Origin: a bacterium
GTDB taxonomy: Archaea > Thermoproteota > Nitrososphaeria > Nitrososphaerales > Gagatemarchaeaceae
Reading direction: 5' to 3'
NCBI GenBank assembly: GCA_027310575.1
Contig: DAIDAO010000056.1
Location: forward strand, 31,881-95,880
Length of the DNA stretch: 64,000 nucleotides
The notes beneath the pieces are model-generated. The model was given only the letters and a program-made list of their open reading frames with translations. It did no database searches and had not been told where the DNA came from. The number at the start of each line of letters is the position of its first letter. The stretch's first letter is position 1. Made by a program: the position numbers and the translations under genes. Shown here piece after piece: positions 49,745 to 58,888 of the stretch.

Positions 49745-50842
49745 CTATCTTGTGGTCTCCGCTGACTTCACAGACTCGTAGAGCTTCCTGGCCGACGCGT
49801 CCTTCACGAAGTGGTCCCTGATCGGGGCGATTATGCCGTCGAGCGCCTGCCCCACGCCCTTCTTCAGGTCGGCCGGGTGGAGGCCCCCGCTCCTGTATGC
49901 GCCTTCGAGCTCGTCTGCGGACGAATACTCGACGTTCCCGCCGTACTTCTCCGGCCGCTCCACCCTGAGCGACTTCTGCTTCCGGAATATGATGTACCTG
50001 GAGTACTCGATGAGCGCGTTCCCTTCGAGGACCTTCGGGGGGCAGTAGGCGGAGTTGACCTTCCGCATGATCGTCTCCGCGCTGTCGTGGACGAAGATCG
50101 AGGTCTCGGGGATGCTCTTGCTCATCTTGCTCGATATCTCCGCGTCGATGGCGCCGTCTTCGTCGAAGGAGCCCTCAGGCTCCTTCTTCCCCTGGAGGCC
50201 GATGAGCATATGGTGATGCACTGCCACGGGCTTCTTCCATTTCATCCTGTCCGCGATCTCCCTCGCGAGGATGTTGGCCCTGCGCTGGTCCAGGCCGAGC
50301 TGGCAGATGTCGACGTCGAGCCAGAATATGTCTGCGACCTGCATCATCGGGTAGAAGAGCTGGGCGGCCTGGAGCGACTCCTTCGTCGTCCTCCCGGCGA
50401 TCGTGAGGGCCCTCTGCGCCCTGCCCATCGTGGTGTTCTGCGCGACCGTTATCACCCTCTTCCAGTACTCCTCCTGCGCGGCAGCTTCGCTGGTCCAGAG
50501 GACTTCGACCTTGCTCATGTCGACCCCCGCCGCCTTCCAGACCTCGATGAAGTACTTCCCGACCTCCTGGATCTTCTCGAGGTCCCCGCCCATCTTGTTG
50601 TTCACCCATGCGAACCAGTCCGCGATCCAGAGCTTCATCCTGACGCCTGCCTTCAGCATGTCTTCCACTAGTATGGGGCGCAGGACGCCGAACGGGAGGT
50701 GGGCCAGTCCGCTCGGCTCGAAGCCGTCGTAGGCCGCCGGATGGTCGTTGGTCTCCAGCAGGGTGCGCAGCTCCTTCTCTGTGATTATCTCCTCGCCGAC
50801 CCCCTTGATCAGCTGGAAGCGCGTCTCCAGGTCCAAACTCAT
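49745..50842 (-). CDS. tyrS: tyrosyl-tRNA synthetase (archaeal type)
   Basis: 365 aa with YDGFEPSGLAHL, the KMSKS loop and GLDQRR motifs. Confidence 0.85.
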   Translation of the reverse strand: MSLDLETRFQLIKGVGEEIITEKELRTLLETNDHPAAYDGFEPSGLAHLPFGVLRPILVEDMLKAGVRMKLWIADWFAWVNNKMGGDLEKIQEVGKYFIEVWKAAGVDMSKVEVLWTSEAAAQEEYWKRVITVAQNTTMGRAQRALTIAGRTTKESLQAAQLFYPMMQVADIFWLDVDICQLGLDQRRANILAREIADRMKWKKPVAVHHHMLIGLQGKKEPEGSFDEDGAIDAEISSKMSKSIPETSIFVHDSAETIMRKVNSAYCPPKVLEGNALIEYSRYIIFRKQKSLRVERPEKYGGNVEYSSADELEGAYRSGGLHPADLKKGVGQALDGIIAPIRDHFVKDASARKLYESVKSAETTR

Positions 50843-53026: not shown

Positions 53027-53902
53027 CTAGGCTGGGATCACAGCGGCCGCCATCGCGGCTAGGAATATGACAGCGAGGTAGGGGCTGGAGAACTTGAAGG
53101 CGAGCCAGGCGTTGGCCTTCGTGGGGGACTTGAACAGCTTGATGTTCGTCCCGAGCAGGAGGAGGTCGAAAACGACAGCAACCGCAGTGTAAACGAAGAA
53201 CCCTACGCCGGCGAAGTAGAAGATGTAGAGGAGGCTCACTGGGATCAGGAGGAGGGTGTTGACGACTATGTACCTGGACGCGGCCACAGGACCCACAACC
53301 GAGGGGAGCATGGGCACGTTCACGGCCGAATAGTCCTCTTCCGTGATCACAGCGAGCGACCAGAAGTGGCTCGGGGTCCAGACGAACACGAGGGCGCCCA
53401 GGAGCCACCCAACCTGCCAGGAGCCCCAGGCAGACGGGATCGCGTACCAGCCTGCGAGCGCGGCGCAGCTCCCCGCGAACCCCCCGAGGACGATGTTCCA
53501 GCTCGTCCTCGGCTTCAGGAAGAGCGTGTAGACTGGCACGTAGATGAACGCGCCGAGCGCTATGAAGAAAGTCGCAAGATAGTCGAGCGTGAGGGCAGCG
53601 ACCAGCAGCCCCCCCGCGACGAGGCCGATGCCGATGGCGAGTGCGTGGGAGGCGGGGACTATCTTCCCCGACGGGAGGGGCCTCCCCATCGTCCTCTTCA
53701 TCTTCGCGTCCATGTCCATCTCCAGGTAGCTGTTCAGAGCCAGCGCCCCGCTCGAGGCGAGCGCGCCCCCGACGAGGACGCCAGCCAGGACGGTGACGGG
53801 CGGGATACCCCGCGCGGCGACGACAGACGACCCAAGGGCCGCCATGAGCAGCAGCGGGGTGATCTTGGGTTTCGTGAGCGCCAGATAGTCTGAAAGGCTC
53901 AT
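53027..53902 (-). CDS. ctaB: protoheme IX farnesyltransferase (heme O synthase)
   Basis: ATG at 53902 (CAT confirmed). 291 aa of UbiA family with the YLEMDMDAKMKRTMGRPLPSG motif. The track ORF extension to 54121 runs antisense through the tRNA gene. Confidence 0.85.
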   Translation of the reverse strand: MSLSDYLALTKPKITPLLLMAALGSSVVAARGIPPVTVLAGVLVGGALASSGALALNSYLEMDMDAKMKRTMGRPLPSGKIVPASHALAIGIGLVAGGLLVAALTLDYLATFFIALGAFIYVPVYTLFLKPRTSWNIVLGGFAGSCAALAGWYAIPSAWGSWQVGWLLGALVFVWTPSHFWSLAVITEEDYSAVNVPMLPSVVGPVAASRYIVVNTLLLIPVSLLYIFYFAGVGFFVYTAVAVVFDLLLLGTNIKLFKSPTKANAWLAFKFSSPYLAVIFLAAMAAAVIPA

Positions 53903-53967
53903 GTGCTTACCGGGACGAGAGCGACGCCCCGTGGGCGCGTATTTTGGCCTTCCCTCTGAGCTGAAAT

Positions 53968-53978
53968 GCTTAAGAAAT
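53968..53978 (+). promoter_or_regulatory. TATA-like box of the tRNA-Tyr gene
   Basis: GCTTAAGAAAT lies 23-33 nt upstream of tRNA position 1 (54001). It is bracketed by the inverted repeat CCCTCTG (53952-53958) and CAGAGGG (53982-53988). Confidence 0.5.
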
Positions 53979-54023
53979 CTCCAGAGGGTCGGCAGCCCGT
54001 CCCGCAGTAGCTCAGCCTGGTAG

Positions 54024-54040
54024 ACCCGTGAGGGGCCGTA
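54024..54040 (+). other. tRNA intron 1 (17 nt, D-arm position 22/23; register ambiguous by 1 nt)
   Basis: Removing it restores the D-stem GCUC/GAGC. It forms a relaxed BHB. The 4-bp helix 54018-54021/54035-54038 contains two G-U pairs. The 3-nt bulges are 54022-54024 and 54039-54041. The inner stem is CCC/GGG capped by a GUGA tetraloop. Confidence 0.7.
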
Positions 54041-54055
54041 AGCTTCCGGCTGTAG

Positions 54056-54100
54056 AGGTCGGCCAAAGGCTGACCCGTCCAGCCTACTCAGGCCACAGTC
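54056..54100 (+). other. tRNA intron 2 (45 nt, canonical position 37/38)
   Basis: This is a canonical BHB. The anticodon stem is 54045-54049/54102-54106. The 4-bp helix is 54050-54053/54095-54098. The 3-nt bulges are 54054-54056 and 54099-54101. The inner helix is 54057-54060/54091-54094. Confidence 0.8.
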
Positions 54101-54122
54101 ACCGGAGTGTCGTCGGCTCAAA

Positions 54123-54144
54123 ACCGCCGCAAGGCGCGTGAGGT
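54123..54144 (+). other. tRNA intron 3 (22 nt, T-loop position 59/60)
   Basis: The BHB is built on the T-stem 54112-54116/54146-54150. The 4-bp helix is CUCA/UGAG (54117-54120/54139-54142). The 3-nt bulges are 54121-54123 and 54143-54145. The inner hairpin is CGCC-GCAA-GGCG. Confidence 0.7.
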
Positions 54145-54181
54145 TCCGACCTGCGGGATATTGTTCAAATCAGCCTATTTT

Positions 54182-55075
54182 CTAGATTCTGACCCATTTC
54201 CTGCCTTCTTTTCGATATCGCGAGGTGAACCAGGCGAATCTGCGTTGAGGTCCCATCTGCGACATTAGGAGGAGGTCGTCAAGTTTCCCGGCCTTTGTCC
54301 TGTTCCGGAAGCCAACCAGAGCTCTGAATCGCCTGACCTGACCGATTCCTCCTATAGTCAGGTGGTAGACATTCTTGCGTCTGACCCATGTCCTACCACG
54401 AATTGTCATTGTCCGTCCCTCCTTGTTGGTGACTCTGAGATGTGGCGCAAACCCCAACGCATCCAGGGACGCGCGTATGGCGTGGAGATAATCGGGATCG
54501 GTGTTCGCCACCCCGACATGGATTCCCTTGACGCGGTGCCAGGCTGCGTCCACATTGCACGTGACATATCCTTCGGCGTCGAAGAACCCCTGGAGGAAAT
54601 CTCGAGCGAAATCCTTCAGATGTTCGACGAGTTTCTCCACATCCTGGTTCAGGAAGATGCTCAGGACTACCGAATCGTACTGAACCGTATAGAACGCGCC
54701 GTCACGGCCGAGTGGCTTGGGGGCTCTGCCGAGGATCTTCGCCACGAGCCCTCCGACATACTCGAGCTGTTCCCGGTCGGCCAACTCGAACCTGACTTTG
54801 TGCTCCTCGCCGGCGTCCTTTCCGTCTCCCAAGTAGAAGCCGGCGACATACGCAAGATCACTGCTCGGACTGAGGTCAGGTTCGTATCGGCCCACGCGCT
54901 TGGGCCTGTTTCCCCTGAGCCAGTACCCGACAATGTCTCTGCTCACACCGAGAGCACTGCCGATTCGGCTATTCGACTGGCCGTCCCTGTGGAGGGCGAC
55001 CGCCCTCTCGTACAGGTCAATCCTGTCCCGGAGGCCCTTCGGGAGCAGTGTGCAGCCGGACAAGCCCATTGACAC
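54182..55075 (-). CDS. free-standing HTH plus double-motif LAGLIDADG endonuclease-like protein
   Basis: About 296 aa (GTG 55075 or ATG 55069). The LAGLIDADG motifs are LAYVAGFYLGDGK and FLQGFFDAEGYV. The N-terminal HTH is IGSALGVSRDIVGYWLRG. G+C is lower than in the flanks (31/60 and 34/60 in two hand-counted samples). Confidence 0.8.
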   Translation of the reverse strand: MSMGLSGCTLLPKGLRDRIDLYERAVALHRDGQSNSRIGSALGVSRDIVGYWLRGNRPKRVGRYEPDLSPSSDLAYVAGFYLGDGKDAGEEHKVRFELADREQLEYVGGLVAKILGRAPKPLGRDGAFYTVQYDSVVLSIFLNQDVEKLVEHLKDFARDFLQGFFDAEGYVTCNVDAAWHRVKGIHVGVANTDPDYLHAIRASLDALGFAPHLRVTNKEGRTMTIRGRTWVRRKNVYHLTIGGIGQVRRFRALVGFRNRTKAGKLDDLLLMSQMGPQRRFAWFTSRYRKEGRKWVRI

Positions 55076-55168
55076 TGTCTGGGCCTAATTAGCGCCCCAG
55101 GTGCAGCGTGAGAGGTTGCCGCTTGGGAGACAAAAGCATATGACCAGGCATCAGAGGCGGGGCCGAGA

Positions 55169-55414: not shown

Positions 55415-55903
55415 TTGGACAAGGGATTCTTAGCCCTCTCAATCGTGTTCATGATCCTCGGCATCACGGGGATAGTCCTGTTCAGCAGCCTCTTCTACAA
55501 CGGCTCGATCTTCCCGCAGATGACCTCTTCAGGGGACTCGTGCTACTGCGTGATTTCGAGCCCCGAGCCTTCGGCCGCCCAGGGGACTTCCAGCATCATC
55601 CTAGCGCTCGGCGTCATGTTCTTCCCGATGGGGCTGATGAAGGGCGGGCTCCCCTCTTTCCGAAGGGGGCCGGCCGCACCATCGCAAGTCCAGCTCCCCA
55701 GCGGGCGCGTGGTCAGTCCGGTCCAGATCACGAGCGGGAGATACCTCGCGTTCGGGCTCCTCGTCCTCCTCGTGGGGATTGACGCCCTCCTCTTGCCCGG
55801 GTACCTGATCTACAAGAACGTCTACTACGAGCTGGCAGGCGCGATGCTGACAGCGGCGGGCGCTATCTCAGTGGCCTGGGGGATCAGGAAGCCCAAGAGC
55901 TGA
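55415..55903 (+). CDS. 4-TM membrane protein (hypothetical)
   Basis: 162 aa. The TTG start is uncertain. I recognise no family. Confidence 0.45.
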   Translation: MDKGFLALSIVFMILGITGIVLFSSLFYNGSIFPQMTSSGDSCYCVISSPEPSAAQGTSSIILALGVMFFPMGLMKGGLPSFRRGPAAPSQVQLPSGRVVSPVQITSGRYLAFGLLVLLVGIDALLLPGYLIYKNVYYELAGAMLTAAGAISVAWGIRKPKS

Positions 55904-55959: not shown

Positions 55960-56547
55960 TTGAGCACTGTTCTACGTAGGCGCAGGAAGGCGAAAGACGA
56001 GGGCGCTGTCGAAGAGGTGAAGGAGGAGGTCAAGAAGTTGGAGAAGGCCACGGTCAAGGAAGCAAAGAAGGCGGAGAAGGCGGTTGAGCACAGACTTGGG
56101 AGGCCGATGGTCAGGCCCTCGCGGCCCACGGGGCGCGTTCCTCAGGCAATGGTCACTGCGAGGCACGGCTCGGGCATGATCACCAGGTCCGGAAGAGGCT
56201 TCTCGCTCGGGGAGCTCGCAGGGGTAGGGTTGGCGCCCGGTCTGGCGGCCGAGTGGGGCGTGAGGATCGACGCCAGAAGGAGGAGCGTGCTGGACGGGAA
56301 TGTGGCTTCTCTCAAGACCTGGCACGCGACCGCAGGCACCAGGGAACGGGTCGAGCACGAGGCGAAGAAGGCGGAGCAGGAACTGGCGAAGGTCGGGAAG
56401 GAAGTCGAGAAAGAGGCGGTCGCAGTCGAGAAGGAGGTCGTGAAGGTCGAGAAGGCGGCGAAGAAGGAAGTGAAGAGGGCGGAGAAGGCAGTCAAGGAGA
56501 AGGCCGAGAAGCCGAAAGCTCGGCCGAAGAAGAAAGAGAAGGCGTAG
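55960..56547 (+). CDS. rpl13e: ribosomal protein eL13 with K/E-rich heptad extensions
   Basis: The core RSGRGFSLGELAGVGL...GVRIDARRRSVLDGNVASLK matches the L13e signature. The TTG start lies 25-36 nt downstream of CCGTTTTATGCC. Both flanks are K/E/V/A heptad repeats. Confidence 0.8.
   Translation: MSTVLRRRRKAKDEGAVEEVKEEVKKLEKATVKEAKKAEKAVEHRLGRPMVRPSRPTGRVPQAMVTARHGSGMITRSGRGFSLGELAGVGLAPGLAAEWGVRIDARRRSVLDGNVASLKTWHATAGTRERVEHEAKKAEQELAKVGKEVEKEAVAVEKEVVKVEKAAKKEVKRAEKAVKEKAEKPKARPKKKEKA
56404..56508 (+). repeat. imperfect 21-nt tandem repeat (5 units, first 3 clear) encoding heptads
   Basis: The units GTCGAGAAAGAGGCGGTCGCA, GTCGAGAAGGAGGTCGTGAAG and GTCGAGAAGGCGGCGAAGAAG are followed by two degenerate units. 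They encode VEKEAVA, VEKEVVK, VEKAAKK and further heptads in the eL13 C-terminal tail. Confidence 0.6.
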
Positions 56548-57463
56548 CCCCGGCCTCGGACTCGCGTGCAGCCATGAAGAGATACTGCTGGGCGTACCCC
56601 GCGTACCTTCCGAACCTGCCCCGGGCCGCCTTCGAGATTCTGAAGTAGTCCCCCCGCGACAGCCTGAGCTTCCCGTCGCGCGCAAGCCTTGACTTCAGTG
56701 CGGAGTCGAGGAGCTTCGGGTAGGACCTAGCCAGCGCCCTCGCGACCCAGACGTCGATTGGGAACGCTTCGTCCTTCCCGCATGAGAACAGCAGGACGCA
56801 GTCCGCGACCTTCGGGCCGACCCCCAGCAGCAGCTTCTCCCCGAAGAGGTCCTTCAGCAGCTCGTCGCGGGCCTCCTCGTAGCTCAATGACGCGACGCGG
56901 GTGAAGTCCACCCTCCCCTCTGCGACCGAGGACGCGACGTGCTTCAGGAAGGGCGCCCTGTAGCCCAGTCCCATCCGTCTCAGGTCCGCCACCGGCGCTG
57001 CGGCGAGGGCCTCGGGGCGTGGGAAGGCGTGCAGCGTCTCTCCTTCGAACTCGAAGGCCGCGCCGCAGGAGTCGCACACCTCCGCGACCATCTTCTTGAT
57101 TCTCGGGATGTTCGCGTTGGTCGCGAGGACGAAGGATGCAAGGCATTCCCACGCGTCCTGCCTTACCAGCCTCATGCCGTAGTACTTCTGCGCAGCCCTC
57201 GCGACGGGCTGGTCCCTGGATATCGACGCGAGTATGTGCTCAAGGTCCTCGTCCAGCCTGAAGTACCTGGCGACGAACCCGCTGCCGACGGAGTCAGAGG
57301 AGGCCGAGCAGCGGAGGACGTCCCCTTCCTGCCTGACCTTCAGCGCGGAGCCGCCCACGACCCCGTGCCACCACTCCCCCTTCCTCGACCACCTGAAGAG
57401 CTGGCCGCTCTCCATCGTGTATTCGAGGCTGAAGGGAGAGTCGAGCGCTACGGTGAATTCCAA
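56492..57463 (-). CDS. ogg: 8-oxoguanine DNA glycosylase/AP lyase (Ogg1-type, HhH-GPD)
   Basis: 323 aa from TTG 57463 (CAA confirmed on the + strand). Motifs are TMESGQLFRW, LLGVGPKVADCVLLF and FPIDVWV. The rest of track ORF 56492..58786 is antisense to hemL. Confidence 0.8.
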   Translation of the reverse strand: MEFTVALDSPFSLEYTMESGQLFRWSRKGEWWHGVVGGSALKVRQEGDVLRCSASSDSVGSGFVARYFRLDEDLEHILASISRDQPVARAAQKYYGMRLVRQDAWECLASFVLATNANIPRIKKMVAEVCDSCGAAFEFEGETLHAFPRPEALAAAPVADLRRMGLGYRAPFLKHVASSVAEGRVDFTRVASLSYEEARDELLKDLFGEKLLLGVGPKVADCVLLFSCGKDEAFPIDVWVARALARSYPKLLDSALKSRLARDGKLRLSRGDYFRISKAARGRFGRYAGYAQQYLFMAARESEAGATPSLSSSAELSASRPSP

Positions 57464-57550
57464 CCCTCGGTGGGGTTTGGAAGCCTGCGATAATTGACTC
57501 TTGTGCCGAGAACGGGCTTGAAATAGGCGGACAGGGGGCCTTCCGGGAAG

Positions 57551-58888
57551 ATGGCCCGGGAGTACGAGGCGAGGACGCGCGGTTCGGAGCGGCTGTTCGA
57601 GAGGGCAAAGAAAGTCTTCGCGGGCGGAGTCAACCACAACGCCCGCTTCTACGAGCCGTACCCGATCTTCGTGAAGAAGGCGAAGGGGCAGCACATCTGG
57701 GACGAGGACGGACATCGCTACACAGACTACTGGATGGGGCACATGGCCCTGATCCTCGGGCACTCGCCGAAGGTGGTCGTCGACGCCCTCAGGCCGCAGA
57801 TAGCGAAGGGGACCCACTACGGGATGGGGAGCAGGCTCTCGGTCGAGCTGGGGGAGGAGATTCAGGGGACGGTTCCCTGCGCCGAAGCGATGAGGTTCTG
57901 CAACACCGGCGCGGAGGCCACGATGTACCTTGTGAGGCTGGCCAGGGCCTACACCGGCAGGCGCGTGGTGATCAAGATGGCCGGGGGCTGGCACGGATAC
58001 AACACGCAGCTGAACATGGGGGTCCACACCCCCTTCGACAGGGCCGAGAGCGCTGGGATCCTGGAGGAGGAGCAGTCGCACGTCAGGAACGTCAGGTTCA
58101 ACGACCTGGATGCTGCCGAGTCGGAACTGAAGAGGGCCGAAGGGGACGCAGCCGCGATCTTCCTCGAGCCGGTCCTCGGCGCCGGTGGGTGCATACCCGC
58201 GGACAGGGACTATCTCAAGGGGCTCCGGGAGCTGGCCGACTCTCGCGGCGTGCTGCTCTGCTTTGACGAGGTCATCACGGGGTTCAGGCTTGCGCTCGGC
58301 GGCGCGCAGGAGTGGTACGGCGTCAGACCCGACCTGGCCGCCTTCGGGAAGATAGCGGGGGGCGGCCTCCCCATAGGCCTCGTCTGCGGGAGGCGAGAGA
58401 TTCTCGCCCTCGCTGACCCCTCGCGAAAGGCTGCGAACTTCGTCTCGATCGGCGGGGGAACTTTCTCCGAGAACCCCCTGAGCATGGCTGCCGGCCTTGC
58501 CACTGTCAGGTACCTCAGAAAGAACGCGAAATCGGTCTATCCGAAACTCGACAGGGTCGGGAAGGAGACCAGGGTCGGAATAGACAAGGCGTTCGCAGAC
58601 GCAGGGGTCGAAGCGCACACGACGGGAGCAGGCTCGCTCTTCCTTACTCATTTCGGGAAAGAGCCCAAGAACGCAGAAGAGGCGGCGGGTGAGGACAAGG
58701 GAATCGTTTCGAGCTACGCTCTCCATCTGATGGCTTCGGGGACCTTCCTCCTGCCGGGTCACCCGGGAGGGACATCGACGGCGCACACGTCTGAGGACAT
58801 CGAAGAACTGGCCAGGGAGAGCGGTACGTTCGGCGAATCGCTTAGGGAGAGGCGACAGCAGAGCGCATTCGGACCAGTTTCAGCCTAG
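57551..58888 (+). CDS. hemL: glutamate-1-semialdehyde 2,1-aminomutase (class III aminotransferase)
   Basis: 445 aa with FDEVITGFR and FGKIAGGGLPIG (PLP-Lys) motifs. Confidence 0.85.
   Translation: MAREYEARTRGSERLFERAKKVFAGGVNHNARFYEPYPIFVKKAKGQHIWDEDGHRYTDYWMGHMALILGHSPKVVVDALRPQIAKGTHYGMGSRLSVELGEEIQGTVPCAEAMRFCNTGAEATMYLVRLARAYTGRRVVIKMAGGWHGYNTQLNMGVHTPFDRAESAGILEEEQSHVRNVRFNDLDAAESELKRAEGDAAAIFLEPVLGAGGCIPADRDYLKGLRELADSRGVLLCFDEVITGFRLALGGAQEWYGVRPDLAAFGKIAGGGLPIGLVCGRREILALADPSRKAANFVSIGGGTFSENPLSMAAGLATVRYLRKNAKSVYPKLDRVGKETRVGIDKAFADAGVEAHTTGAGSLFLTHFGKEPKNAEEAAGEDKGIVSSYALHLMASGTFLLPGHPGGTSTAHTSEDIEELARESGTFGESLRERRQQSAFGPVSA

What the first reader, a model, noticed from the sequence alone, without database searches (positions are those of the whole stretch)
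54001..54158. tRNA-Tyr(GUA) gene interrupted by three BHB introns (D-arm 22/23, anticodon 37/38, T-loop 59/60)
No protein gene explains 53903-54181. The track ORF covering it is an antisense run-on of ctaB.

On the + strand, CCCGCAG-TA-GCTC-AGCCTGGTA-GA is a textbook acceptor/D-arm 5' half. CTGCGGG-A at 54151-54158 is its exact complement plus discriminator. The two ends are 158 nt apart.

Deleting 54024-54040 (17 nt), 54056-54100 (45 nt) and 54123-54144 (22 nt) leaves 74 nt: CCCGCAG UA GCUC AGCCUGGUA GAGC U UCCGG CUGUAGA CCGGA GUGUC GUCGG CUCAAAU CCGAC CUGCGGG A. All 21 stem pairs are Watson-Crick and the invariant positions are present.

The anticodon loop CUGUAGA, the C1-G72 pair and A73 are the archaeal tRNA-Tyr identity set. 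The layout is the same as M. jannaschii tRNA-Tyr as I recall it.

Each intron folds into a bulge-helix-bulge with the cut after the second bulge nucleotide. Introns 2 and 3 are canonical. Intron 1 is relaxed, with two G-U pairs in its 4-bp helix.

Multi-intron tRNAs are known in Thermoproteales-like archaea, but they are easily missed by ORF- or standard tRNA-based annotation.

One oddity is that position 54 is C rather than U. The cognate tyrS lies only 3.2 kb away (49745-50842).
Basis: partly seen in the sequence, partly recalled or inferred. Interest (0 to 1): 0.75.

Follow-up and report, generated by a model that had tools for sequence, protein, structure and literature searches.

The report
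Three-intron tRNA-Tyr gene, thaumarchaeal
The stretch is a real tyrosine tRNA gene cut into four pieces by three short archaeal-type introns; this kind of gene is already known in this group of archaea, so it is a sound but fairly ordinary find that default tRNA finders miss.

Summary
Window 54001-54158 (+) holds four exon pieces. Joined, they give a 74-nt tRNA-Tyr(GUA) that ARAGORN accepts, and that aligns without gaps to intron-less haloarchaeal tRNA-Tyr genes.

Each of the three insertions (22/23, 37/38, 59/60) sits in the bulge-helix-bulge register used by the archaeal splicing endonuclease.

Comparative data settle the question:
- The same split gene lies at the same syntenic place (L13e - tRNA - ctaB - thiI - trx - ctaA - tyrS) in related Nitrososphaerota contigs.
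- Exons are 96% conserved. Introns 1 and 3 are 68% and 57% conserved.
- Acceptor and T stems show compensatory changes, and the intron helices covary.
- Several relatives with the identical mature sequence lack intron 3 exactly at the predicted junction.
- A conserved TTAAGAAAT box sits about 30 nt upstream.

The host is a 64% GC, non-AOA soil thaumarchaeote, close to Gagatemarchaeaceae. It is not a member of Thermoproteales. Multi-intron tRNAs in Thaumarchaeota are already documented, so this is a new member of a known kind.

Three side findings are more interesting:
- Related metagenomic tRNA-Tyr genes carry four BHB introns.
- The T-loop intron is polymorphic.
- A patchy free-standing LAGLIDADG homing-endonuclease gene always abuts the 3' end of this tRNA.

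The parts
53970..53978 (+). TTAAGAAAT box, likely archaeal TATA/BRE promoter element, centred about 27 nt upstream of tRNA position 1
   Evidence: (C)TTAAGAAA is present at the same distance in every orthologue with 5' flank shown, while the surrounding flank averages 61% identity. Promoter function is inferred.
54001..54023 (+). Exon 1: acceptor 5' strand, U8 A9, D-stem 5' strand, D loop and G22
   Evidence: Identical or with compensated changes in all orthologues.
54024..54040 (+). Intron 1 (17 nt) at 22/23, relaxed BHB (HBh')
   Evidence: H = UGGU x GCCG, h' = CCC/GGG, bulges AGa and uaA. Across 68 distinct intron-1 sequences H(b) is always RCCA, GCCG or GUCA, and h' covaries. A shift to 23/24 gives the same mature RNA but destroys the BHB.
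54041..54055 (+). Exon 2: A23-C25, U26, anticodon-stem 5' strand, C32 U33 G34 U35 A36 G37
   Evidence: Identical in L001-L007.
54056..54100 (+). Intron 2 (45 nt) at the canonical 37/38 position
   Evidence: H = CUGU x ACAG, bulges AGa and ucA, outer helix is the anticodon stem. 88% conserved among orthologues. Contains a covarying hairpin and a conserved CAGCCUAC motif.
54101..54122 (+). Exon 3: A38, anticodon-stem 3' strand, variable loop GUGUC, T-stem 5' strand, C54-A59
54123..54144 (+). Intron 3 (22 nt) at 59/60 in the T loop
   Evidence: H = CUCA x UGAG, bulges AAa and guU, outer helix is the T stem, h' is a GC-rich hairpin with a GCAA loop. It is absent, with an exact junction, in L007, L017, L127 and L248, which have the identical mature sequence. 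It is present in 42 and absent in 36 of 78 distinct genes.
54145..54158 (+). Exon 4: U60, T-stem 3' strand, acceptor 3' strand, discriminator A73. CCA is not encoded.
   Evidence: Compensatory changes with exons 1 and 3 in L001-L003.
54178..54181 (+). TTTT run 20 nt after the tRNA, a possible archaeal oligo-T terminator (weak inference)
   Evidence: Sequence only. The bacterial-type terminator scan found nothing here.
54182..55075 (-). Neighbour: free-standing two-motif LAGLIDADG homing-endonuclease-like gene, convergent with the tRNA
   Evidence: Pfam LAGLIDADG_3. AF2 model with pLDDT 89 matches PI-PfuI, I-Tsp061I and I-DmoI. Homologues always sit at the 3' end of D-intron tRNA-Tyr genes.
53027..53902 (-). 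Neighbour: ctaB (heme O synthase), divergent from the tRNA
   Evidence: Pfam UbiA. A 291-aa homologue matches at 100% identity and coverage.
49745..50842 (-). tyrS, tyrosine-tRNA ligase, 3.2 kb away. The synteny is conserved.
   Evidence: NF006330, 380 bits against a cut-off of 220. Synteny.

Best explanation
Window 54001-54158 (+) is the functional tRNA-Tyr(GUA) gene of a high-GC, non-ammonia-oxidising thaumarchaeote (Nitrososphaerota, close to Gagatemarchaeaceae).

Proposed mechanism:
1. The gene is transcribed from a TTAAGAAAT-type promoter about 30 nt upstream, as a precursor of about 158 nt.
2. In the precursor, the D loop, the anticodon loop and the T loop each pair with the following intron. 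Each pairing forms a 4-bp helix flanked by two 3-nt bulges (bulge-helix-bulge).
3. The archaeal splicing endonuclease is expected to be the broad-specificity (alpha-beta)2 type. It cuts after the second nucleotide of each bulge, at 54023/24, 54040/41, 54055/56, 54100/01, 54122/23 and 54144/45.
4. An RNA ligase joins the four exons.
5. CCA is added after transcription.
6. The 74-nt tRNA carries C1-G72, A73 and the GUA anticodon, and is charged by the TyrRS encoded 3.2 kb away.

Shown here: the exon and intron layout, the BHB geometry, conservation, covariation and the intron presence/absence alleles.

Inferred: transcription, the identity of the enzymes, and the order of intron removal.
For: - Spliced product. 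It is called tRNA-Tyr(gta) by ARAGORN, with 21 of 21 Watson-Crick stem pairs, and the cloverleaf is its minimum-free-energy fold. It aligns gap-free, 52 of 74 identical, to the haloarchaeal intron-less gene L008:1267-1340. That gene scores 60.2 bits on Rfam RF00005.
- Orthologues at the same syntenic site. L001-L007 carry the same four exons. There are compensatory changes: A6:U67 to G6:C67, and T stem GUCGG/CCGAC to GCAGG/CCUGC.
- Covariation. On 36 spliced tRNA-Tyr sequences the cloverleaf is 100% paired. 13 pairs show double changes, and 0 of 500 shuffles reach the observed score.
- Conservation pattern. Exons are 96% identical, against 68% for intron 1, 57% for intron 3 and 51-61% for the flanks.
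- Intron 3 polymorphism. Intron 3 is missing at exactly the predicted junction in L007, L017, L127 and L248, all with the identical mature sequence. It is present in 42 and absent in 36 of 78 distinct genes.
- BHB register. The register holds in all relatives, and the h' helices covary.
- Compatibility. The three BHBs can form together in one nested fold of the precursor.
- Promoter. A conserved promoter box lies upstream.
- Literature. Thaumarchaeota are known to have multiple non-canonical tRNA introns and (alpha-beta)2 EndA (PMC8450103, PMC5829648, PMC4090602).
Against: - No RNA data exist for this locus.
- The splicing endonuclease of this genome was not seen. It is not in the part of the window that I examined, and the rest of the genome is not available.
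- Only the window was available, so a second tRNA-Tyr copy elsewhere in the genome cannot be excluded.
- The outer helix of intron 1 is weak (1 contiguous pair, or 3 pairs with a 1-nt bulge).
- The unconstrained MFE of the precursor (-71.9 kcal/mol) is not the triple-BHB fold (-63.1 kcal/mol).
- My exon parser required stem pairing, so the 100% paired figure is partly built in.
- C54 replaces the near-universal U54.
Confidence: 0.93

Rival explanations
1. It is a decaying tRNA-Tyr pseudogene. The three insertions are junk that inactivated the gene, and the working tRNA-Tyr lies elsewhere in the genome.
For: Default tRNA finders and Rfam see nothing here. C54 is unusual. The rest of the genome could not be searched.
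Against: - The interrupted gene is kept at the same syntenic place in many species, with 96% exon identity, compensatory stem changes and a conserved promoter box.
- Every insertion keeps a BHB register with covarying helices.
- In the truncated scan of species-representative genomes, no genome of this clade showed a second, intron-less copy matching the D-arm/anticodon pattern.
Confidence: 0.04
2. It is a real split tRNA-Tyr gene, but one or more splice sites differ from those proposed. For example, intron 1 could be cut at 23/24, or the T-loop intron at 58/59 as in Nitrososphaeraceae.
For: Intron 1 begins with A and exon 2 begins with A, so cuts at 22/23 and 23/24 give the same mature RNA. 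In Nitrososphaeraceae the T-loop intron is best placed at 58/59 (and my reading of it).
Against: In the window only the 22/23 register gives a 4-bp helix with 3-nt bulges. The shifted register gives 1 of 4 pairs. For intron 3 the flanking bases (...GGU|U) leave only 59/60 if the mature loop is CUCAAAU. That is the loop seen in the intron-less alleles.
Confidence: 0.03
3. It is a chance resemblance, or part of a protein-coding region (the 364-aa antisense ORF 53027-54121).
For: A mechanical ORF covers the 5' three-quarters of the region, to 54121.
Against: ctaB homologues are 288-291 aa and align from 53902. The 15-nt D-arm motif TAGCTCAGCCTGGTA occurs once in the window. The comparative evidence above is incompatible with chance.
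Confidence: 0.005

Closest known systems
Multi-intron tRNA genes of Thermoproteales and Thaumarchaeota (Sugahara et al. 2007/2008; handled by tRNAscan-SE 2.0, PMC8450103)
   Same: Up to three short BHB introns per gene, at canonical and non-canonical positions. The motifs include relaxed HBh' forms. Removal is by (alpha-beta)2 EndA.
   Different: This particular gene, tRNA-Tyr with 22/23 + 37/38 + 59/60, and this clade (high-GC soil thaumarchaeotes of Group I.1c type) were not described in the papers I could read. Whether GtRNAdb or GenBank already annotate it could not be checked.
tRNA-Tyr of Nitrososphaeraceae (Nitrososphaera, Nitrosocosmicus), loci L013, L016, L047, L060 and others
   Same: It is an orthologous 74-nt tRNA-Tyr with C54, a canonical intron carrying the same CAGCCUA motif, and a T-loop intron.
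   Different: It has no D-arm intron. Its canonical intron is longer (54-65 nt). Its T-loop intron is 28-31 nt and is best placed at 58/59, not 59/60.
Cyanidioschyzon merolae nuclear tRNA-Ile(UAU) (PMC3728597)
   Same: It has three BHB introns in the D arm, at 37/38 and in the T loop. Stepwise removal was shown experimentally.
   Different: It is eukaryotic and nuclear, a different isoacceptor, and an independent origin.
Methanocaldococcus jannaschii tRNA-Tyr (identity set C1-G72, A73, G34; from my own knowledge)
   Same: The same 74-nt class I layout, a 9-nt D loop, a 5-nt variable loop and the same identity elements.
   Different: It has no introns and has U54.
Free-standing homing endonuclease next to an intron-bearing gene ('collaborative homing', F-CphI/psbA in cyanophage; PMC6083498, PMC3984707). 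This concerns the LAGLIDADG neighbour only.
   Same: A free-standing endonuclease gene with patchy distribution sits directly beside a conserved gene that carries endonuclease-less introns.
   Different: The enzyme family differs (LAGLIDADG), the introns are BHB rather than group I, and the host is archaeal. No cleavage site is known, and the link to the introns is untested.

Membership tests
tRNA (Rfam RF00005 / cloverleaf) | 7-bp acceptor, 4-bp D, 5-bp anticodon and 5-bp T stems, with the conserved nucleotides U8, A14, G18 G19, A21, U33, G53, U55, C56, A58 and C61 | tested here: met
   ARAGORN calls the spliced 74-mer a tRNA, and all stems are Watson-Crick. All listed nucleotides are present by direct reading. 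Exception: C54 in place of U54.
tRNA (Rfam RF00005 / cloverleaf) | The genomic sequence scores above the family threshold | tested here: not met
   There is no RF00005 match at gathering score or at E<=10 on the unspliced locus. This is expected for a gene with three insertions. The one-, two- and four-intron orthologues tested (L010, L013, L007, L157) are missed as well, whereas intron-less L008 scores 60.2 bits.
Archaeal tRNA-Tyr | GUA anticodon, C1-G72 first pair, discriminator A73 | tested here: met
   Read directly from the sequence and from the ARAGORN call. The same features are present in all 117 parsed tRNA-Tyr genes. That these are the identity elements rests on published M. jannaschii work, recalled from memory.
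Archaeal BHB (bulge-helix-bulge) intron | A 4-bp central helix flanked by two 3-nt bulges on opposite strands, with the cut after bulge nucleotide 2 at both sites | tested here: met
   All three introns fit this register: 4 of 4 pairs for introns 2 and 3, and 2 G-C plus 2 G-U pairs for intron 1.
Archaeal BHB (bulge-helix-bulge) intron | Flanking helices h (exon-exon) and h' (intron-intron) are present (strict hBHBh'); if one is missing the motif is relaxed (HBh' or hBH) | tested here: met
   - Intron 3: h is the T stem (5 bp), and h' is a 5-bp hairpin with a 1-nt irregularity.
- Intron 2: h is the anticodon stem. h' can be drawn as 4 bp, but comparative data favour a local hairpin.
- Intron 1: h is weak, so it counts as the relaxed HBh' form.
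Archaeal BHB (bulge-helix-bulge) intron | Excision is precise: alleles without the intron are colinear at the predicted junction | tested here: met
   - Intron 3 is absent in L007, L017, L127 and L248, which have the identical mature sequence.
- Intron 1 is absent in Nitrososphaeraceae, Nitrosopumilales and haloarchaea.
- Intron 2 is absent in haloarchaea.
Archaeal BHB (bulge-helix-bulge) intron | Cleavage by the splicing endonuclease EndA and ligation, shown by RNA junctions | not testable with these tools
   No transcript data are available. EndA of this genome was not looked for beyond the ORFs scanned.
Multi-intron tRNA genes of TACK archaea | The host encodes a broad-specificity (alpha-beta)2 or epsilon2 EndA | not tested
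   From the literature only: (alpha-beta)2 EndA is conserved in Thaumarchaeota (PMC5829648, PMC4090602). The host is placed in Nitrososphaerota by ctaB homologues and by the titles of the tRNA-Tyr orthologue records.
Split or permuted tRNA genes | Exons are encoded at separate loci or in permuted order | tested here: not met
   All four exons are colinear within 158 nt on one strand.

The most novel reading that the evidence does not exclude
The tRNA-Tyr gene and the convergent LAGLIDADG gene at its 3' end form a selfish unit. The endonuclease is an active free-standing homing enzyme whose target is the tRNA-Tyr gene or its empty 3' flank. Repair-driven co-conversion would then carry the linked multi-intron tRNA allele into naive genomes. 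That would give a DNA-level route for the spread of BHB tRNA introns in this clade. The same clade holds tRNA-Tyr genes with four introns, one more than the published maximum of three.
Probability: 0.15. Interest if true: 0.7.

Novelty: new member of a known kind. Interest (0 to 1): 0.35.

Why it matters
For annotation: this appears to be the only tRNA gene in the 64-kb window. It is very likely the organism's tRNA-Tyr, yet ARAGORN and Rfam miss it completely. Genomes of this abundant soil lineage will look as if they lack tRNA-Tyr unless an intron-aware archaeal mode is used.

For biology: the gene adds little to what is known about BHB splicing. The comparative series built around it is more useful. 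It runs from 0 to 4 introns in one orthologous 74-nt tRNA, includes a T-loop intron that is present or absent among genes with identical exons, and has a homing-endonuclease gene docked at the tRNA's 3' end. That makes it a compact natural system for asking how archaeal tRNA introns are gained, lost and possibly mobilised.

Tried and rejected
- ARAGORN (default, intron mode, lowered threshold) and Rfam (gathering score and E<=10) on the unspliced locus found nothing. The one low-threshold ARAGORN hit, a 'tRNA-Arg' with a 136-nt intron, is an artefact.
- Low-threshold ARAGORN on the whole window gave 13 weak calls (tRNA-Gln, Phe, Ala and others). I took them to be noise on score alone. A motif scan found no second D-arm or T-arm pair.
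- The GTTCAAATC motif at 54163-54171 is at chance frequency: 5 matches found, about 4 expected by my estimate.
- Exact-sequence look-ups of tyrS and of the 100% identical ctaB (P0001) found no contig on record, so the source genome could not be retrieved.
- I considered a C/D-box guide RNA in the well-conserved intron 2. There is no C box, and the CUGA is lost in L077, L084 and L096. Rejected.
- I considered that the canonical h' of intron 2 (GGUC x GGCC) is the conserved helix. It is not maintained in L018, L084 and L096, whereas hairpin 1 covaries.
- L080 has a 21-nt insertion after position 43 with no BHB in any equivalent register. It is left unresolved and not counted as a fourth intron.
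- I looked for a link between the LAGLIDADG gene and the T-loop intron. There is none: the gene occurs with both allele types.
- A sequence search of the LAGLIDADG protein against the PDB found nothing. Only the fold search did.
- The neighbours of the four-intron locus L157 gave no taxonomic clue.
- EndA was not searched for in the window beyond the ten ORFs.

Full report
**1. What is in the sequence**

Removing 54024-54040, 54056-54100 and 54123-54144 leaves 74 nt:

CCCGCAG UA GCUC AGCCUGGUA GAGC U UCCGG CUGUAGA CCGGA GUGUC GUCGG CUCAAAU CCGAC CUGCGGG A.

- ARAGORN calls this RNA tRNA-Tyr(gta), and all 21 stem pairs are Watson-Crick.
- The cloverleaf is within 1.1 kcal/mol of its minimum-free-energy fold, which differs from it by one extra pair.
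- ARAGORN on the whole window, Rfam at gathering score, and Rfam at E<=10 on 53900-54260 all find nothing on the unspliced DNA.
- The mechanical ORF 53027-54121 is a run-on. The heme O synthase gene (Pfam UbiA) has a homologue of 291 aa with 100% identity and coverage that starts at 53902.

**2. BHB geometry**

I used the register of the archaeal motif:
- 5' bulge = the last two exon nucleotides plus intron nucleotide 1.
- Central helix H = the four exon nucleotides before that bulge, paired with intron nucleotides n-5 to n-2.
- 3' bulge = the last two intron nucleotides plus the first nucleotide of the next exon.

| Intron | H | Bulges | h' | Outer helix h |
|---|---|---|---|---|
| 1 | UGGU x GCCG (2 G-C, 2 G-U) | AGa / uaA | CCC/GGG closing GUGA | One contiguous pair, or A14-U26, G15-C25, C16-G24 with C17 bulged |
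| 2 | CUGU x ACAG | AGa / ucA | GGUC x GGCC can be drawn | Anticodon stem |
| 3 | CUCA x UGAG | AAa / guU | GC-rich hairpin with a GCAA loop and one bulged base | T stem |

Sliding the intron 1 or intron 2 junction by one base gives the same mature RNA but destroys the motif. All three motifs can be drawn together in one nested structure of the precursor. It has -63.1 kcal/mol when the rest is allowed to fold, against an unconstrained MFE of -71.9.

**3. Who carries it**

- The window has 62-66% G+C.
- ctaB homologues are named Nitrososphaerota or Thaumarchaeota.
- A ribosomal protein L13e gene lies nearby. By my recollection L13e is confined to the TACK archaea.
- Orthologous tRNA loci carry titles such as 'Nitrososphaerales archaeon' soil MAGs and Candidatus Gagatemarchaeum stordalenia.
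- Gagatemarchaeaceae are aerobic soil heterotrophs with 54-62% G+C (PMC10640624).

So the host is a non-AOA thaumarchaeote, not a member of Thermoproteales.

**4. Comparative test**

Contigs that encode ctaB homologues of 76-89% identity keep the gene order L13e - [gap] - ctaB - thiI - thioredoxin - ctaA - tyrS. In the gap, on the strand opposite to ctaB, they carry the same four exon pieces.

- **Compensatory changes.** L001-L003 differ from the window by A6:U67 to G6:C67, and by two T-stem pairs (GUCGG/CCGAC to GCAGG/CCUGC).
- **Intron-less allele.** L007 has introns 1 and 2, but exon 3 runs straight into exon 4 (...GGCTCAAA|TCCGAC...). This is exactly the predicted 59/60 junction.
- **Promoter box.** (C)TTAAGAAA lies about 30 nt upstream in every locus shown with 5' flank.
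- **Conservation.** Among twelve three-intron orthologues, exons are 96% identical, intron 1 68%, intron 2 88%, intron 3 57% and the flanks 51-61%.

**5. Wider series**

One scan of species-representative genomes, and one of metagenomes, used a D-arm/anticodon pattern. A parser of mine gave the following picture:

| Group | Introns in tRNA-Tyr |
|---|---|
| Haloarchaea | None |
| Nitrosopumilales, Caldarchaeales, Bathyarchaeia and others | Only 37/38 (34-69 nt) |
| Nitrososphaeraceae | 37/38 plus a T-loop intron, best placed at 58/59 |
| The window's clade | D-arm intron (13-24 nt), 37/38 (43-47 nt), and the T-loop intron (15-25 nt) in 42 of 78 distinct genes |

- All 117 parsed genes give 74-nt products that align without gaps.
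- On 36 of them the cloverleaf is 100% paired. 13 pairs have changes on both sides, and no shuffle or slid control comes near. My parser demanded paired stems, so the percentage is partly built in. The conserved unpaired positions and the constant length are not.
- Across 68 distinct intron-1 sequences, H(b) is always RCCA, GCCG or GUCA, and h' covaries (CG, UA, AU, GC).
- Across 36 intron-3 sequences, h' is 5-6 bp in most and covaries. H has 3-4 of 4 pairs in 27 cases and only 1-2 of 4 in the other nine.
- As a calibration, the intron-less gene L008:1267-1340 scores 60.2 bits on RF00005 and is called tRNA-Tyr by ARAGORN. Every intron-bearing orthologue is missed by both.

**6. Mechanism**

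The best-supported reading is an ordinary archaeal pre-tRNA pathway: transcription, cleavage at six bulge sites by EndA, ligation, CCA addition (CCA is not encoded here), and charging by the nearby TyrRS (NF006330).

The literature places (alpha-beta)2 EndA in Thaumarchaeota. This is the type able to cut relaxed, non-canonical motifs (PMC5829648, PMC4090602). Neither the enzyme nor the RNA was observed here.

**7. Novelty**

The tRNAscan-SE 2.0 paper makes three relevant statements (PMC8450103):
- Crenarchaeota and Thaumarchaeota have tRNA genes with multiple non-canonical introns.
- Archaeal tRNA genes contain up to three introns.
- A Thaumarchaeota-specific BHB model was built, and it found 107 non-canonical introns in that phylum.

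The finding is therefore a new member of a known kind. It is worth recording for annotation, but it is not surprising to a specialist.

**8. Side findings**

(a) Four-intron genes.
- L157, L182, L187 and L217 have insertions at 22/23, 37/38, 53/54 and 59/60. L157 and L217 were tested: all four insertions are in BHB register, h' helices are present in both with different sequences, and the product is a normal 74-nt tRNA-Tyr.
- L132, L223 and L232 appear to combine D, 37/38, variable-region and T-loop insertions, but their variable-region insertion did not fit a BHB register in the one case tested (L223).
- L183-type genes have a third intron at 44/45 instead of 59/60.
- My full-text search of the held library found no report of a four-intron archaeal tRNA.

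(b) The LAGLIDADG gene at 54182-55075 (-).
- It is a two-motif enzyme with invariant D84 and E168.
- Its model (pLDDT 89) matches PI-PfuI, I-Tsp061I and I-DmoI.
- Its small family (60 proteins) was found only immediately 3' of, and convergent with, D-intron tRNA-Tyr genes. That holds for 14 of 74 such loci with enough flank, 0 of 84 loci without the D-arm intron, and three more distant members fetched independently of the tRNA pattern.
- Truncated or frameshifted remnants (L209, L214, L218, L251) and a terminal remnant of about 110 nt (L007) lie at the same place.
- L005 looks like an empty site.
- This is the pattern expected of a free-standing homing endonuclease gene cycling at a tRNA-adjacent target.
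- Any role in spreading the introns is speculation. The association with the D-arm intron is confounded by phylogeny.

(c) Intron 2 is unusually conserved. Across distant TACK lineages it keeps a covarying hairpin that starts at intron nucleotide 2, and a CAGCCUAYCAGGC segment whose loop contains UAC, the complement of the anticodon. I have no tested explanation for this.

**9. Verdict**

I put the probability that this is a functional three-intron tRNA-Tyr gene at about 0.93. Interest is 0.35.

Noticed in passing
window 54182-55075 (-); also L004:905-1798, L018, L089, L108, L134, L140, L159, L161, L163, L166, L186, L229, L236, L248:2501-3394, L249:2222-3205: A free-standing two-motif LAGLIDADG homing-endonuclease-like gene has an N-terminal HTH-like segment and invariant D84 and E168. 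Its fold matches I-DmoI, I-Tsp061I and PI-PfuI. In every case it is convergent with a D-intron tRNA-Tyr gene, with its 3' end next to the tRNA 3' end (stop codon 23 nt away in the window). It is present in 14 of 74 such loci and in 0 of 84 tRNA-Tyr loci without the D-arm intron. Close relatives L001, L002 and L005 lack it.
   Followed up: yes
L209, L214, L218, L251:2501-3034, and L007 (first ~110 nt after the tRNA 3' end); empty site in L005: Truncated, frameshifted or terminal remnants of the same LAGLIDADG gene lie at the same position. L005 looks like a clean empty site (GGGATATT|TCACAGCTTAAAGG, against GGGATATT|GTTCAAATCAG... in the window). The cassette in the window spans roughly 54163-55150. 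This suggests a cycle of gain, decay and loss.
   Followed up: partly
L157 (tRNA on + strand, starts ~7960), L182, L187, L217 (metagenome contigs Ga0315282_10001414, Ga0315279_10116138, Ga0153916_10659218 and one more): These tRNA-Tyr(GUA) genes have four insertions, at 22/23, 37/38, 53/54 and 59/60. In the two tested (L157, L217) all four are in BHB register and the spliced product is a normal 74-nt tRNA with encoded CCA. The tRNAscan-SE 2.0 paper gives three as the maximum for archaeal tRNA genes, and I found no paper that reports four. The taxon of these ~48% GC contigs was not determined.
   Followed up: partly
L132, L223, L232 and L080 (JACPTA010000227.1, + strand from ~3045): These are further tRNA-Tyr genes with a fourth insertion, in or just before the variable loop. 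In L080 it is 21 nt after position 43, and no BHB fits any equivalent register. L080's T-loop insertion is also irregular. It could be a relaxed motif, a pseudogene or an assembly error.
   Followed up: partly
L141, L183, L191, L169, L179, L197, L202, L215, L219, L227: A sister group of tRNA-Tyr genes has its third intron at 44/45 (CCGGAG|CUUGGCGAUCGGCCAACCGGAG|UGUC, with H = CCGG x CCGG) instead of in the T loop. The intron positions differ between lineages while the 74-nt product stays the same.
   Followed up: partly
window 54056-54100 and intron 2 of L010-L123: The canonical tRNA-Tyr intron is much more conserved than introns 1 and 3 (88% against 68% and 57%). Across Nitrososphaeria, Caldarchaeales, Bathyarchaeia and Brockarchaeota it keeps a covarying hairpin from intron nucleotide 2. 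It also keeps a CAGCCUAYCAGGC segment whose loop holds UAC, the complement of the anticodon. An alternative pairing of G31-G34 with CAGC has one compensated change (L011). Its function is unknown.
   Followed up: partly
window 54117 (tRNA position 54); the same position in L001-L007, L013-L120: C54 replaces the near-universal U54. It is conserved in most tRNA-Tyr genes of the window's clade, throughout Nitrososphaeraceae, and in Nitrosopelagicus (L011). Most other lineages have U54. C54 is part of the central helix of the T-loop BHB, but it also occurs in genes without that intron.
   Followed up: partly
L013, L016, L026, L033, L047, L060 and other Nitrososphaeraceae loci: Their T-loop intron (28-31 nt) is best placed at 58/59 (H = GCUC x GAGU; L016 reads CTCAA|T...). 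That is one nucleotide away from the 59/60 site of the window's clade. It may reflect intron sliding or an independent gain.
   Followed up: partly
L004:5147-6792: An IS605-type pair, a TnpB/Cas12f-like OrfB gene and a Y1 transposase gene, sits next to thiI in the relative GCA_028867035.1. It replaces the thioredoxin-ctaA-tyrS part of the otherwise conserved gene order.
   Followed up: no
L004:1982-2851, L006:1050-1922, L007:1989-2834, L251:1495-2382: A gene of ~280-295 aa with no Pfam match lies between tRNA-Tyr (or the LAGLIDADG gene) and ctaB in some relatives. It is absent from the window. In L006 and L251 the tRNA is inverted relative to ctaB (in L251 together with the LAGLIDADG remnant).
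   Followed up: no
window 55167-~55400 (+) and 55415-55903 (+): A small ORF (MKAWVPVATVALVAVAYAFFYEL...) and a 162-aa ORF without a significant family lie between the LAGLIDADG gene and L13e. Both have homologues in L005 and L007.
   Followed up: no
window 56492-58786 (-): This mechanical 764-aa ORF carries the OGG_N and HhH-GPD domains only in residues 451-689. Relatives encode a ~303-aa 8-oxoguanine glycosylase, so the long ORF is a high-GC run-on.
   Followed up: no
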